Below are positions 18,746 to 23,707 of a stretch of 51,153 nt of DNA, one piece after another (within the stretch, counting starts at the first letter, position 1; the number at the start of each line of letters is the position of its first letter). This stretch comes from a virus (taxonomy: Duplodnaviria > Heunggongvirae > Uroviricota > Caudoviricetes). The notes under the pieces are model-generated. The model did no database searches, had not been told where the DNA came from, and saw only the letters and a list, made by a program, of their open reading frames with translations. Position numbers and translations under genes: made by a program. The DNA lies in IMG/VR virus record IMGVR_UViG_3300025000_000056. One strand, written 5' to 3'.

Positions 18746-18774
18746 GTATAACATTTTGGTACATGGACATACTA
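18746..18774 (+). promoter_or_regulatory. sigmaG/sigmaF (forespore) promoter
   Basis: GTATA (18746-50), 17 nt, CATACTA (18768-74) fits sigmaG consensus; GGacAtAcTA (18765-74) also fits the sigmaF -10. Confidence 0.75.
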
Positions 18775-19580: not shown

Positions 19581-19748
19581 GTGCATAAATCTCTAATCAA
19601 CCATAGAGAAGGTAATGTATTGTATCCTAAGGCCTTTATTCATAGAATCTATAAAGCAAATTGGGAGCAGCTTAAGAAGTATTTAGATTCTAAGAATCCT
19701 TATCTATTACAGAAAACAAATAGCTCACTAGAAGTATTTCCCTTCTAG
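19581..19748 (+). CDS. Small hypothetical protein (55 aa; not in the ORF track)
   Basis: AAGGAG 10 nt before GTG; MHKSLINHREGNVLYPKAFIHRIYKANWEQLKKYL... Confidence 0.4.
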   Translation: MHKSLINHREGNVLYPKAFIHRIYKANWEQLKKYLDSKNPYLLQKTNSSLEVFPF

Positions 19749-19760
19749 TGAGCTATTTGT
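19716..19760. terminator. Hairpin at the convergence of the two gene blocks
   Basis: ACAAATAGCTCACTAGAAG/CTTCTAGTGAGCTATTTGT perfect 19-bp stem. Confidence 0.8.
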
Positions 19761-19769
19761 CTGTGTTAT

Positions 19770-19919
19770 TTATCGACTAGGCCCAAATTGTTCAAAGATC
19801 TTTCGAACCATTCTTCCGCCAACCGATCCGTTCTCACGACTTGTGCGATCTGCACCAAGTTGAATTCCTAATTCACGAGCTGTTTCCTCTTTATTAACGG
19901 GCATATTATACTTCGCCAT
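19770..19919 (-). CDS. ssp: Alpha/beta-type small acid-soluble spore protein (SASP), 49 aa; not in the ORF track
   Basis: AAAGGAGG RBS; MAKYNMPVNKEETARELGIQLGADRTSRENGSVGGRMVRKIFEQFGPSR has both SASP signatures (K.E.A.ELG and TSR.NGSVGG.M.K). Confidence 0.9.
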   Translation of the reverse strand: MAKYNMPVNKEETARELGIQLGADRTSRENGSVGGRMVRKIFEQFGPSR

Positions 19920-19975
19920 GTGTATCGCCTCCTTTTATTTATGATAGTATTATTGCTCGAAGACGACGATAATAA

Positions 19976-20539
19976 TCAGGTAAAGTCTGGCATTAGAAGG
20001 CCACCGGCCTGTAGTGCTTCAGCTATAAAAGCCTTAACAAAATCAACAACCACACCTAACTCTAGATCATTGTTAATCAGTAAATCACAATTGGTGAGAT
20101 TAGCCACGTCTTTATTATAGGTTCTGAAATGTTTGTAATAGTTAAACTCATCTGAACCATAGCGTTCTTTAAGACGACGCTTAATCTCTTCTTCATTACA
20201 TTTGACCCCAATGATAATGACATTATCAACGTGCCGCGTATAAGCATCCGATCCTTTACGGTTTAAAGCAATACAACAATCGACATTACTAGAGTTCAGC
20301 AATTCAAGTTGAACTTTTGTCATTCCATAGTAGTCACCTTGAATAATTTCATACGTAGCCCAGCCCTGTTCGGCGTCTAAGGCTTTAAATTCTTCGAGTG
20401 ATATAAAATGATAGTCAACACCATTGGTCTCATCAACGCGCTTCTCACGCGTTGTATACGTTATAAGAATCGGAAGACCACAGGCTTTAGTCAACGTTGT
20501 TTTGCCAGCACACGACGGGCCCTGAAAGATAACTAACAT
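19976..20539 (-). CDS. gmk: Guanylate kinase-like nucleoside monophosphate kinase
   Basis: GPSCAGKTT, TYTTREKR..E.NGVDYHFIS, YYGMT; start 20539 in a TAATG overlap. Confidence 0.88.
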   Translation of the reverse strand: MLVIFQGPSCAGKTTLTKACGLPILITYTTREKRVDETNGVDYHFISLEEFKALDAEQGWATYEIIQGDYYGMTKVQLELLNSSNVDCCIALNRKGSDAYTRHVDNVIIIGVKCNEEEIKRRLKERYGSDEFNYYKHFRTYNKDVANLTNCDLLINNDLELGVVVDFVKAFIAEALQAGGLLMPDFT

Positions 20540-20898
20540 TAATCGCATCCCCCTCCACAATCACAGCTTCCAGAATCAAAACCGCCAAAGTCACAGCTAT
20601 TACCGTGATCATGATGGTGATGTCCACCATCATAAGCACTAAACACACCCATATACGGAAGTACATAGTCATCGTTATTTCTATAAGAACTAGACTTTGG
20701 TGCAGGTGTCGATATTTTAACAGAGTGTATAGACTTAGTTACCGTCGTTTTGGGTTGTACTGAACTAGGTCTTGTATTGGCTTGATAAAATTCGGGTTCC
20801 GTCTTAGCCTCATAAGGTTTGGCGGGCTTCATGAGATACATAAAACATAGAGTACCTAAGATGACCATAATTGTGACTGCGATTAAGACAAATACCAT
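20539..20898 (-). CDS. Membrane-anchored protein with His/Cys/Gly-rich tail
   Basis: AAAGGAGG before ATG 20898; N-terminal TM helix; tail GGHHHHDHGNSCDFGGFDSGSCDCGGGCD. Confidence 0.7.
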   Translation of the reverse strand: MVFVLIAVTIMVILGTLCFMYLMKPAKPYEAKTEPEFYQANTRPSSVQPKTTVTKSIHSVKISTPAPKSSSYRNNDDYVLPYMGVFSAYDGGHHHHDHGNSCDFGGFDSGSCDCGGGCD

Positions 20899-22372: not shown

Positions 22373-22914
22373 TACATATCCTCCTCGTAAGTGTCGTCCA
22401 CGATGGTGATAGCCTTTAGTTTATCTAAGAGACCCTCTTCCTGGAGGCGTCTAATGAGATAGCCCTTGGTGATATCTTTATCATACTTAATCGTTAGTAA
22501 GTTGATCCCTTGTTCAACGCAGAGACGAGCTTTAAGTTTATCACAGGCCCGCAAGTATTCAAAGGCTTCTTTTGTCTTGTGCATATATGAATTATACGTG
22601 TAATGTTGCCTGCCATTAAATTCAAAGGCTAGGTTGAGTTTAGGGAAGAACATATCAAGTTGCATGGGTTGATTCTTTGGCGACATGAGCCAATTATAAT
22701 AACCACCAATAATGTATTCATCGTTAGGAAGTATCATAGCCATGACCTTATGCATCTCACGTTCACTCTTACTTTGCTGAGGTAAATTAGCCTTAGGTTG
22801 TTTGTAAACTCCCTTATAGGGATTACATTTCTTACAAAACTTTGGCTTCTTGGTTTTGTAATTTAACTTGGCACCGCATTTCGTACAACTTGCTGTCTTA
22901 TACATACGTACCAC
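22372..22914 (-). CDS. Zinc-ribbon plus Vsr/DUF559-like endonuclease
   Basis: CTKC...CKKC; LDMFFPKLNLAFEFNGRQHY. Confidence 0.8.
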   Translation of the reverse strand: MVRMYKTASCTKCGAKLNYKTKKPKFCKKCNPYKGVYKQPKANLPQQSKSEREMHKVMAMILPNDEYIIGGYYNWLMSPKNQPMQLDMFFPKLNLAFEFNGRQHYTYNSYMHKTKEAFEYLRACDKLKARLCVEQGINLLTIKYDKDITKGYLIRRLQEEGLLDKLKAITIVDDTYEEDM

Positions 22915-23707
22915 CCCTTAGTTTAGCAATAGTTGCCAAACGCCTTCTGTTAATAGTTGCCCTACAGGTTCCTAGGATGTTTGCTATCTGCTGATCTGTG
23001 AGTTCATCAATATAATAAAGCTTAATGATCTTTCGATCAAAGATACTTAATGTATGAAACGAATCCGAACAGGTAAGCCCGTTAACCCAGTTATCGTTGA
23101 TCTCATCCATGTCGTCTTCAATGCTTGAGGCCTCCATAGAAGCAATCCACTCATCTGAATGGTCCATATCAGATTCAATATACTGTGATAAATAATCCGC
23201 GTCTTCATCAGAATCAAAGCTTTGATTATTCTTTGCTTGAAAGACAACGGGGTCTGAGATAAGAGTCCGTAGCTGTCGGTGAAGTTGATAAGCAAATGTT
23301 TTATCTACGTAGTAATGAAATCGTGGTTTACCATCGGGTGATTTATAACGCTTAGCAAGCGTTAGTAAGGCAAGCGCTGTCTCTTGTATGATTTCTTCAT
23401 AAGAGTACTTGCTGAAGAATCCCTTAATTGAATTAGTGATCTTATAGATTTCATTGTGAGCAAATCGAGATCGTCTAAACCTATGAAGGTTAGCTCGTGT
23501 CAGAGGATTTGAAATATAAAGACTGATGAATTGCCGTTGTCCCCTGCGGGAAGCACTGATGGTTCCCTTTTTAATCAAGTTAACAAACTGAGCCATGTAT
23601 TCTTTGAATGCTATCAATAATTGTTCGGCCGCGCCTGATTTGTTTTCTTGATAAGCAAGGACTAAGGCTTCAGTTTCTTCATACGTAAACCGTTTAGTGT
23701 CTGTCAT
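22898..23707 (-). CDS. Phage sigma70-family RNA polymerase sigma factor
   Basis: Region-2-like EIIQETALALLTLAKRY...RFHYYV; region 4 IIKLYYIDELTDQQIANILGTCRATINRRR. Confidence 0.82.
   Translation of the reverse strand: MTDTKRFTYEETEALVLAYQENKSGAAEQLLIAFKEYMAQFVNLIKKGTISASRRGQRQFISLYISNPLTRANLHRFRRSRFAHNEIYKITNSIKGFFSKYSYEEIIQETALALLTLAKRYKSPDGKPRFHYYVDKTFAYQLHRQLRTLISDPVVFQAKNNQSFDSDEDADYLSQYIESDMDHSDEWIASMEASSIEDDMDEINDNWVNGLTCSDSFHTLSIFDRKIIKLYYIDELTDQQIANILGTCRATINRRRLATIAKLRGGTYV

What the first reader, a model, noticed from the sequence alone, without database searches (positions are those of the whole stretch)
19770..19975. Phage-encoded SASP with an altered germination-protease site
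Seen: a compact 49-aa alpha/beta SASP missed by the ORF track. The usual E-(I/F)-A-x-E GPR cleavage motif reads E-T-A-R-E, and the second helix is more basic (GGRMVRK). Upstream, a weak sigmaG-like pair (GATTA-N18-AATAATA) is present. Known: alpha/beta SASPs coat spore DNA and are degraded by GPR at germination. Inference: it protects entrapped phage DNA, or persists after germination to silence host DNA or shield phage DNA from restriction.
Basis: partly seen in the sequence, partly recalled or inferred. Interest (0 to 1): 0.75.

Follow-up and report, generated by a model that had tools for sequence, protein, structure and literature searches.

The report
Host-derived spore DNA-coating gene in phage
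An uncultured ~220-kb groundwater phage carries a real 49-residue spore DNA-binding protein (alpha/beta SASP) gene, taken with its sporulation-type promoter and terminator from a Desulfosporosinus-like host. This kind of gene is already known from Bacillus phages such as SPbeta, and the "altered protease site" is a rare natural variant, not a demonstrated adaptation.

Summary
Window 19770-19919 (-) encodes a 49-aa protein that passes the Pfam SASP model (44 bits, cut-off 22) and matches the solved SspC-DNA structure 2Z3X. E-T-A-R-E, G-G-R-M-V-R-K and GATTA-N18-AATAATA are all present.

Three points change the reading.
1. Compact size is not a phage invention. The closest relatives (69-80% identity, 48-49 aa) are multi-copy chromosomal SASPs of Desulfosporosinus/Peptococcaceae.
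2. The phage copy is a whole captured cassette. Its upstream block, Shine-Dalgarno region and terminator hairpin (with one compensatory stem change) are homologous to the host loci. Its promoter, TTACCTGATTA-N18-AATAATA, lies within the variation of host ssp promoters (TTACCTGAGTA-N17-CATAATA) and is unique in the 117-kb phage record. Synonymous sites are saturated and dN/dS is about 0.1, so the capture is old and the gene is under selection.
3. Thr after the scissile Glu is rare (5 of 91 distinct SASP motifs). It also occurs in chromosomal, thiI-linked SASPs. Net charge equals that of the host copies.

Most likely the gene is transcribed in the forespore and joins the SASP coat that also covers trapped phage DNA, as with SPbeta sspC. 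It is a new member of a known kind. Resistance to the germination protease (GPR) is possible but untested. This scan earlier noted sporulation-type features next to this gene in the same phage.

The parts
19770..19919 (-). 49-aa alpha/beta-type SASP gene (protein P0001), short subfamily
   Evidence: ORF. Pfam PF00269 at 44.1 bits against cut-off 22. 2Z3X SspC E 1.2e-6. 69-80% identical to 48-49 aa chromosomal Desulfosporosinus SASPs. dN/dS about 0.1 against the host copies.
19928..19934 (-). Shine-Dalgarno AAGGAGG, 8 nt before the ATG
   Evidence: Read from the sequence. The same AAGGAGGCGAT block is present in host loci L013 and L011.
19948..19954 (-). -10-like element AATAATA (sigmaG type; host-lineage consensus CATAATA)
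   Evidence: Coordinates. AATAATA is the -10 in 4 of 29 host-lineage ssp promoters of this type and CATAATA in 22.
19973..19983 (-). extended -35 block TTACCTGATTA; overlaps the stop codon of the upstream gene
   Evidence: Only match to TTACCWGWKTW in the window. The block plus N17-18 plus -10 occurs once in the 117-kb record. Host ssp promoters carry ACCTGAGTA (23), ACCTGACTA (3) or ACCTGATTA (2).
19976..19994 (-). 19-nt upstream block AATGCCAGACTTTACCTGA, identical to the block upstream of the closest short-SASP genes (chromosomal L013 and prophage-like L079); marks the 5' part of the captured cassette
   Evidence: It is conserved even though synonymous sites in the CDS are saturated.
19716..19760 (.). 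19-bp hairpin terminator shared with the convergent + strand unit; homologous to the hairpin after host short-SASP genes
   Evidence: Terminator scan. Folds and sequences show host stems CATTAG/CTAATG and the phage stem CACTAG/CTAGTG, a compensatory change. Aligned.
19976..20560 (-). upstream guanylate-kinase-like gene (context); its last codons and stop lie inside the captured block, and no terminator separates it from the SASP gene
   Evidence: Pfam Guanylate_kin 52 bits. PHROG guanylate kinase. No - strand terminator between the genes.

Best explanation
This is a genuine alpha/beta-type SASP gene that an uncultured 0305phi8-36-like jumbo phage acquired long ago from a Desulfosporosinus-type host. 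It was taken as a complete transcription unit: ssp-type forespore promoter, ribosome-binding site, coding sequence and hairpin terminator. These points are shown: family membership; homology of the coding and flanking sequence to chromosomal short-SASP loci; a promoter that falls within the host ssp promoter family; purifying selection. These points are inferred: when an infected cell sporulates and the phage genome is trapped in the forespore, host forespore RNA polymerase (sigmaG, possibly sigmaF) transcribes the gene. The protein then joins the SASP pool that coats all DNA in the spore core, phage DNA included, and raises its resistance to UV, heat and desiccation. At germination it is removed by the host germination protease, perhaps with somewhat altered kinetics because Thr replaces Val/Ile after the scissile Glu. 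This is the same logic as sspC of Bacillus phage SPbeta.
For: Family: Pfam SASP at 44 bits against cut-off 22, and 55% identity to SspC of 2Z3X over the two DNA-binding helices. Phage context: virion proteins, primase, helicase and RNR; 33% identity to a 0305phi8-36 virion protein; an IMG/VR record of 117 kb, about 52% complete; the same protein on 220-230-kb groundwater contigs. Host origin: the best full-length matches are Desulfosporosinus MAGs at 78% and 69%, and the 48-49 aa homologues sit among ordinary chromosomal genes, up to five copies per contig. Cassette homology: the 19-nt upstream block is identical, the SD block is shared and the terminator is homologous with a compensatory pair change. 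Promoter: the host long-class ssp genes carry ACCTGAGTA-N17-CATAATA. The phage's exact -35 variant (ACCTGATTA) and -10 variant (AATAATA) both occur among chromosomal ssp promoters. The motif is unique in the phage record, and no sigma-70-type promoter was found in front of the gene. Selection: pS 0.65-0.78, pN about 0.15, dN/dS about 0.1. GPR is present in two Desulfosporosinus genomes. Precedent: SPbeta sspC is sigmaG-regulated (PMC8270828). Its upstream region reads GTATA-N17-CATAATA. Phage genomes do get trapped in spores (PMC2731898, PMC9429907). A second, unrelated siphophage-like contig (L079) carries the same cassette in reverse orientation inside its tail module, the arrangement of an autonomously expressed inserted gene (a 'moron').
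Against: There are no expression data. Promoter assignment rests on homology and consensus, and sigmaG dependence has not been shown for Desulfosporosinus ssp genes. The spacer is 18 nt against the usual 17 in the long class. The region between -35 and -10 has diverged from the nearest host copies, and 17 nt are missing after the -10. The gene lies 56 nt behind a co-oriented phage gene with no terminator between them, so it may also be made during lytic growth. Host assignment rests on this cassette alone; the guanylate-kinase-like neighbour gave no host signal. Whether this phage is ever trapped in spores is unknown. The phage record lacks GPR and Spo0A-like genes, but it is only about half the genome.
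Confidence: 0.6

Rival explanations
1. One reading: the phage copy has evolved to escape or slow the germination protease (Thr at P1', Arg at P3') and to bind DNA more tightly (Arg after G-G). It would then stay on DNA after germination, delaying host outgrowth or shielding phage DNA.
For: Thr at P1' is rare: 5 of 91 distinct motifs, against Ile 50 and Val 32. Arg after G-G occurs in 2 of 91. Every close host homologue has Val or Ile at P1' and Gln or Glu after G-G. The phage copy has 6 Arg where hosts have 3-4. From memory, not read here (the paper is not held): Carrillo-Martinez and Setlow 1994 showed that changes in this pentapeptide can block GPR cleavage.
Against: E-T-A also occurs in chromosomal thiI-linked SASPs P0018 and P0019, which presumably must be degraded at germination. 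Thr is isosteric with the common Val. Arg at P3' occurs in chromosomal SASPs. Some chromosomal short SASPs lack the P1 Glu altogether, so the site is loosely constrained in this subfamily. Net charge is unchanged. Five other phage SASPs keep E-I-A.
Confidence: 0.12
2. The gene is expressed mainly during lytic infection, as the last gene of the RuvC-sigma-...-guanylate-kinase-like block. It would act on vegetative DNA, either compacting and silencing the host nucleoid or covering phage DNA against nucleases.
For: It has the same orientation as the upstream gene, lies 56 nt behind it, and no terminator separates them. From memory: SASPs made in growing cells condense DNA and are toxic. An engineered antibacterial phage delivery system has been built on this toxicity.
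Against: The cassette keeps a host-type forespore promoter block under evident constraint, which read-through expression would not need. SASP binding is not sequence-specific, so phage DNA would be silenced too. In L079 the same cassette sits antisense within late tail genes, which is incompatible with read-through. The phage sigma factor is not a SigF/SigG orthologue (26.8 bits against a cut-off of 234).
Confidence: 0.15
3. The gene is a passenger with no benefit to the phage: a leftover of illegitimate recombination with host DNA, or a gene that benefits only the host spore.
For: It is a small gene at the end of a block, flanked by host-derived non-coding DNA. Such insertions are common in large phages.
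Against: Synonymous sites are saturated, yet the protein is conserved (dN/dS about 0.1). The ORF, SD, promoter block and terminator are intact, and the terminator shows a compensatory change. The protein is identical on more than 20 contigs from different samples. SASP genes have been captured independently by several phage lineages.
Confidence: 0.08

Closest known systems
SspC of Bacillus phage SPbeta (SPBc2 sspC)
   Same: A phage-borne alpha/beta SASP with its own forespore promoter and terminator. It is 54.5% identical over residues 10-42. The SPbeta upstream region reads GTATA-N17-CATAATA, and the gene is sigmaG-regulated and part of the host sporulation network (PMC8270828).
   Different: SspC is 72 aa and has the canonical E-I-A-S-E-F site. 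It is carried by a temperate Bacillus siphophage. The present gene is 49 aa, has E-T-A-R-E-L, sits in an uncultured jumbo phage, and derives from a Desulfitobacteriaceae-type host.
SASP genes of lytic Bacillus phages (SPO1 gp34.25, CampHawk, Goe2, Chewbecca, Thrax5, phage G)
   Same: Annotated alpha/beta SASPs in large virulent phages. The authors presume they protect phage DNA (PMC3868849; PMC12484599).
   Different: Those proteins are 79-80 aa with the canonical E-I-A site and share 46-49% identity with P0001. Their hosts are Bacillus species. None has been tested functionally, as far as the papers searched show.
Chromosomal 48-49 aa SASPs of Desulfosporosinus/Peptococcaceae (P0002-P0012; for example Desulfosporosinus sp. 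SMAG_U7261 and Peptococcaceae bacterium BRH_c23)
   Same: Same length and architecture, 69-80% identity, and homologous promoter block, SD and terminator.
   Different: They are chromosomal, multi-copy and often tandem. They have E-(V/I)-A at the protease site, or N/T/K-I-A in one branch, and Gln or Glu after G-G. Their -10 region is GGTTAGATTA-like, where the phage has AATAATA.
SASP cassette in the IMG/VR contig IMGVR_UViG_3300025600_000117 (L079)
   Same: A short SASP 78% identical to P0001, with the same upstream block and terminator, inside phage DNA.
   Different: It is an HK97-like siphophage tail module, and the cassette lies antisense between the major tail protein gene and the tape-measure side. 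The protease site is the canonical E-V-A-K-E.

Membership tests
alpha/beta-type SASP (Pfam PF00269) | Score above the curated family threshold | tested here: met
   44.1 bits against 22, E 2e-11. The six-frame search of the record gave 43.2 bits.
alpha/beta-type SASP (Pfam PF00269) | Two conserved helix regions: K-x-E-x-A-x-E-(L/F/M)-G, and N-G-S-V-G-G followed by a basic helix | tested here: met
   Both regions align without gaps to 19 other SASPs. Invariant columns are K10, E16, L21, G22, R28 and N30-G35. They also align to SspC of 2Z3X. The AF2 model has helices 10-16 and 27-45 but low confidence (pLDDT 65).
alpha/beta-type SASP (Pfam PF00269) | Canonical GPR site E-(I/F/V)-A-x-E-(F/L/M) | tested here: inconclusive
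   P1 Glu, P2' Ala, P4' Glu and P5' Leu are present. P1' is Thr, seen in 5 of 91 distinct motifs, some of them chromosomal. Cleavage itself cannot be tested with these tools.
alpha/beta-type SASP (Pfam PF00269) | Forespore-specific (sigmaG/sigmaF) promoter | tested here: inconclusive
   TTACCTGATTA-N18-AATAATA is the positional homologue of the host ssp promoters and lies within their variation. It differs from the B. subtilis consensus GHATR-N17/18-CATXHTA (recalled from memory) at one position in each element. There are no expression data.
alpha/beta-type SASP (Pfam PF00269) | Non-specific binding of double-stranded DNA with a change to an A-like helix, and protection from UV | not testable with these tools
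   Biochemical property; inferred only from conservation of the DNA-binding helices.
Phage-borne autonomously expressed inserted gene ('moron': own promoter and terminator) | Host-derived gene with its own promoter and terminator inside a phage genome | tested here: met
   Flank homology to host loci on both sides, phage genes on both sides, and the L079 parallel. Promoter activity itself is not shown.

The most novel reading that the evidence does not exclude
The phage has retuned a captured host SASP so that it outlasts the host's own SASPs at germination: Thr after the scissile Glu, Arg at P3', and Arg after G-G. This would keep the spore's DNA, or preferentially the phage genome, coated and silent until the phage is ready to resume. 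It would act together with the neighbouring sporulation-type DNA-transfer cassette (window about 15.6-19.2 kb) as a dedicated 'spore hitch-hiking' module.
Probability: 0.12. Interest if true: 0.65.

Novelty: new member of a known kind. Interest (0 to 1): 0.3.

Why it matters
Phage-borne SASPs have been annotated for decades, but none appears to have been tested for its benefit to the phage in the papers I searched. This case adds three things. First, it extends the phenomenon beyond Bacillus phages to a groundwater jumbo phage of a sulfate-reducing, spore-forming clostridial lineage. Second, it shows cleanly that the whole forespore transcription unit was captured and then maintained under selection, which argues for expression inside the spore and not as a lytic gene. 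Third, it gives a host prediction (Desulfosporosinus) for an otherwise orphan jumbo phage. It also brings to light a minimal 48-49 aa SASP subfamily that I did not find described in the papers I searched. That subfamily could help define the smallest DNA-protecting unit.

Tried and rejected
- Megablast of 6 kb around the gene against 50,697 phage records found nothing.
- The phage sigma factor (22898-23707, -) is not a SigF/SigG orthologue: the SigBFG model gave 26.8 bits against a cut-off of 234. There is therefore no support for a phage sigma driving the promoter.
- The guanylate-kinase-like neighbour has only about 30% identical relatives scattered over many phyla, so it gives neither a host signal nor a clear junction.
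- An exact 18-mer of the upstream block gave 10 hits in the genome collection. That is about the chance level (my estimate, roughly 17 for a collection of this size), and only the Desulfosporosinus SMAG_U7261 hit lies upstream of an ssp gene.
- Strict B. subtilis-type sigmaG pattern matches in the 117-kb record (5 found) are about what chance gives by my own rough estimate, so they carry no weight alone.
- The AF2 model was of low confidence (pLDDT 65), so I ran no fold search.
- The single-protein search of the 50%-identity representative library returned only 34 hits. The profile search found 7,997 proteins but listed 120, so the motif tally rests on 91 distinct motifs biased towards relatives.
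- The Thr-bearing SASPs P0043 and P0049 lie on contigs of about 1 kb, so their origin (phage or cell) could not be settled.
- The GPR-site mutagenesis paper (PMC196721) and the SspC-DNA structure paper (PMC2268541) are not held. What I say about them is from memory.
- No complex prediction was run, because DNA cannot be a partner in that tool.

Full report
**1. What is there**

Window 19770-19919 on the minus strand is an ATG-started 49-codon ORF. A strong Shine-Dalgarno (AAGGAGG, 19928-19934) precedes it, and a 19-bp hairpin terminator (19716-19760) follows it. The product (P0001) passes the Pfam alpha/beta SASP model at twice the curated threshold (44.1 bits against 22, E 2e-11). It falls in PHROG phrog_10367. 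It aligns to SspC of the solved SspC-DNA complex 2Z3X over both DNA-binding helices (residues 10-42, E 1.2e-6).

- E-T-A-R-E at residues 12-16;
- G-G-R-M-V-R-K at residues 34-40;
- GATTA-N18-AATAATA upstream.

**2. The setting**

The window is phage DNA. It encodes virion structural proteins, a 2129-aa fibre or tail protein, primases, a DnaB-like helicase, ribonucleotide reductase, an FtsK/SpoIIIE-like ATPase and a sigma factor. Its virion protein is 33% identical to ORF171 of Bacillus jumbo phage 0305phi8-36. The window belongs to a 117-kb IMG/VR record judged about 52% complete. The identical SASP is found on more than 20 contigs, most of them 220-230 kb, from groundwater metagenomes. The record has one SASP gene, no GPR gene and no Spo0A-like gene.

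**3. Phage SASPs are not new**

A tblastn search of 50,697 phage records found SASP genes in 37 Bacillus phage records, many annotated as such. These include SPbeta/SPBc2 sspC, SPO1 gp34.25, CampHawk, Goe2, Chewbecca, Thrax5 and KoopaTroopa.
- The CampHawk announcement already proposes that the phage SASP protects phage DNA (PMC3868849).
- Phage G carries one too (PMC12484599).
- SPbeta sspC is known to be sigmaG-regulated (PMC8270828).

**4. Where this copy came from**

The nearest relatives are not phage proteins. A family of 48-49 aa SASPs, 69-80% identical to P0001, lies in ordinary chromosomal neighbourhoods. Neighbouring genes include glycyl-radical enzyme, purine synthesis, aldehyde:ferredoxin oxidoreductase, corrinoid methyltransferases and Spo0E-like genes. 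Up to five copies lie on one contig.

Named genomes place the family in Desulfosporosinus. The matches are 78% to MAG SMAG_U7261, 69% to UBA8488, and a protein named from Peptococcaceae bacterium BRH_c23. These genomes also carry the usual 65-68 aa SASPs and GPR. So the compact size is a host-lineage trait.

**5. A whole cassette was captured**

Homology runs past the coding sequence on both sides.
- Upstream, a 19-nt block (AATGCCAGACTTTACCTGA, window 19994-19976) is identical to the block in front of the closest host copies. The Shine-Dalgarno block is shared as well.
- The last codons and the stop of the phage's guanylate-kinase-like gene lie inside this block.
- Downstream, the phage hairpin is the homologue of the hairpin after every host short-SASP gene. 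The stem carries one compensatory change (CATTAG/CTAATG in hosts, CACTAG/CTAGTG in the phage).

Within the coding sequence, nucleotide identity is only about 73%. Synonymous sites are saturated (pS 0.65-0.78), pN is about 0.15 and dN/dS is about 0.1. The capture is therefore old, or the true donor is unsampled, and the protein has been kept by selection. Against that background, the perfectly conserved non-coding block is best read as a functional cis-element.

**6. The promoter**

Upstream of the canonical long SASP genes of Desulfosporosinus and Desulfitobacterium I found a recurrent ATTACCTGAGTA-N17-CATAATA. This is a good sigmaG-type promoter when set beside SPbeta sspC (GTATA-N17-CATAATA).

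Of 76 distinct upstream regions, 29 carry the two-part motif. The -35 block variants are ACCTGAGTA (23), ACCTGACTA (3), ACCTGATTA (2) and ACCAGATTA (1). The -10 variants are CATAATA (22), AATAATA (4), TAGATTA (2) and TATAATA (1).

The phage has TTACCTGATTA-N18-AATAATA, so each of its elements is an attested chromosomal variant. The spacer is one base longer than the mode. The extended block occurs once in the window, and the full motif occurs once in the 117-kb record. No sigma-70-type promoter was found in front of the gene.

The segment between the two elements has diverged from the nearest host copies, and 17 nt are missing after the -10, so activity is not assured. The phage's own sigma factor is not a SigF/SigG orthologue.

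**7. The protease site**

I anchored on the N-G-S-V-G-G motif and tallied 91 distinct motif windows from 157 proteins.

| Position | Residues (count) |
|---|---|
| P1 | Glu 81 |
| P1' | Ile 50, Val 32, Thr 5 |
| P2' | Ala 83 |
| P3' | Asn 44, Ser 16, Thr 8, Gln 5, Arg 4 |
| P4' | Glu 84 |
| After G-G | Glu 36, Gln 34, Arg 2 |

Thr is therefore rare but recurrent. Two of the other Thr carriers (P0018 and P0019, tandem two-domain SASPs) lie directly after thiI. As I recall, that is where sspA sits in B. subtilis, so E-T-A exists in SASPs that appear to be chromosomal. One branch of the chromosomal short SASPs has Asn, Thr or Lys in place of the P1 Glu. Five other phage SASPs keep E-I-A. Thr is isosteric with Val.

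Net charge is +3 in both the phage and host short SASPs. The phage copy mainly replaces Lys with Arg and gains Arg after G-G, offset by changes elsewhere. None of this shows protease escape, and none excludes it.

**8. A second phage with the same cassette**

The only IMG/VR relative (L079, 5.6 kb) carries a short SASP 78% identical to P0001, with the same upstream block and terminator. It lies antisense between a major tail protein gene and the tail-chaperone and tape-measure genes of an HK97-like siphophage. That is the position expected of an autonomously expressed inserted gene (a 'moron'), and it cannot be expressed by read-through of the late operon. It shows that phages of this host group have taken up the cassette more than once.

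**9. How it most likely works**

The shown steps are the family, the origin, the cassette structure and the selection. The inferred steps are as follows. In a sporulating infected cell, host forespore RNA polymerase transcribes the gene. The protein joins the SASP coat on all DNA in the spore core, including a trapped phage genome. GPR removes it at germination. Phage genome entrapment in spores is established for Bacillus phages (PMC2731898; PMC9429907; PMC12991052). I put this reading at about 0.6.

The rivals are:
- a protease-resistant, persistent variant (0.12);
- mainly lytic expression by read-through, since no terminator separates the gene from the co-oriented upstream gene (0.15);
- a neutral passenger (0.08).

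**10. Earlier notes from this scan**

Earlier notes on the same phage describe a conjugation-like DNA-pumping cassette with sporulation-type promoters at window 15.6-19.2 kb, and a sigmaG-consensus site at 18746. My own pattern search found that site (GTATA-N17-CATACTA), although five such strict matches in 117 kb are about what chance gives by my rough estimate. These notes fit a sporulation-linked neighbourhood, but I did not test them further.

**11. Verdict**

It is a new member of a known kind (phage-borne, forespore-type SASP), with unusually clear evidence that the whole host transcription unit was captured, and with a host prediction. The 'altered protease site' is a rare natural variant whose effect is untested. 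Interest is modest (0.3).

Noticed in passing
L007:635-12435, L008, L009:9657-10147 (Desulfosporosinus-type metagenome contigs): There is a minimal 48-49 aa alpha/beta SASP subfamily lacking the usual N- and C-terminal extensions. It occurs in up to five copies per contig, often as tandem pairs, each copy with the same roughly 80-nt conserved upstream region and hairpin terminator. I did not find it described in the papers I searched.
   Followed up: partly
L079:1459-1608 (IMGVR_UViG_3300025600_000117): A short-SASP cassette is inserted antisense between the major tail protein gene and the tape-measure side of an HK97-like siphophage tail module. This is a second, independent phage capture of the same host cassette.
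   Followed up: partly
P0010-P0012 (for example L002:7461-7610): One branch of the chromosomal short SASPs has Asn, Thr or Lys in place of the conserved Glu before the protease cut site (N-I-A, T-I-A, K-I-A). It is open whether GPR cleaves these at all.
   Followed up: no
P0018, P0019, P0021, P0023, P0024, P0029; P0020 (908 aa) and P0037 (539 aa): Some proteins have two SASP domains in tandem. Two long proteins have 9 and 5 SASP-like stretches. P0018 and P0019 lie directly after thiI.
   Followed up: partly
window 18746-18774 (+): GTATA-N17-CATACTA is a strict match to the B. subtilis sigmaG consensus. It lies about 1 kb from the SASP gene and heads a unit convergent on it. Five such matches in the 117-kb record are about chance level by my rough estimate.
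   Followed up: partly
upstream of the short-SASP genes in L006, L007, L009, L011, L013 and L079 (about -110 to -30): The conserved region extends well beyond a promoter: a GCCATTAATGCCAGAC box 5' of the -35, and CCTGA ... TCAGG inverted around the promoter. The phage keeps the 5' box but not the 3' half. The function is unknown; it may be a regulator site.
   Followed up: no
window 19581-19748 (+): A 55-aa ORF without family matches has its last codons running into the shared terminator hairpin. Whether it is a real gene is unclear.
   Followed up: no
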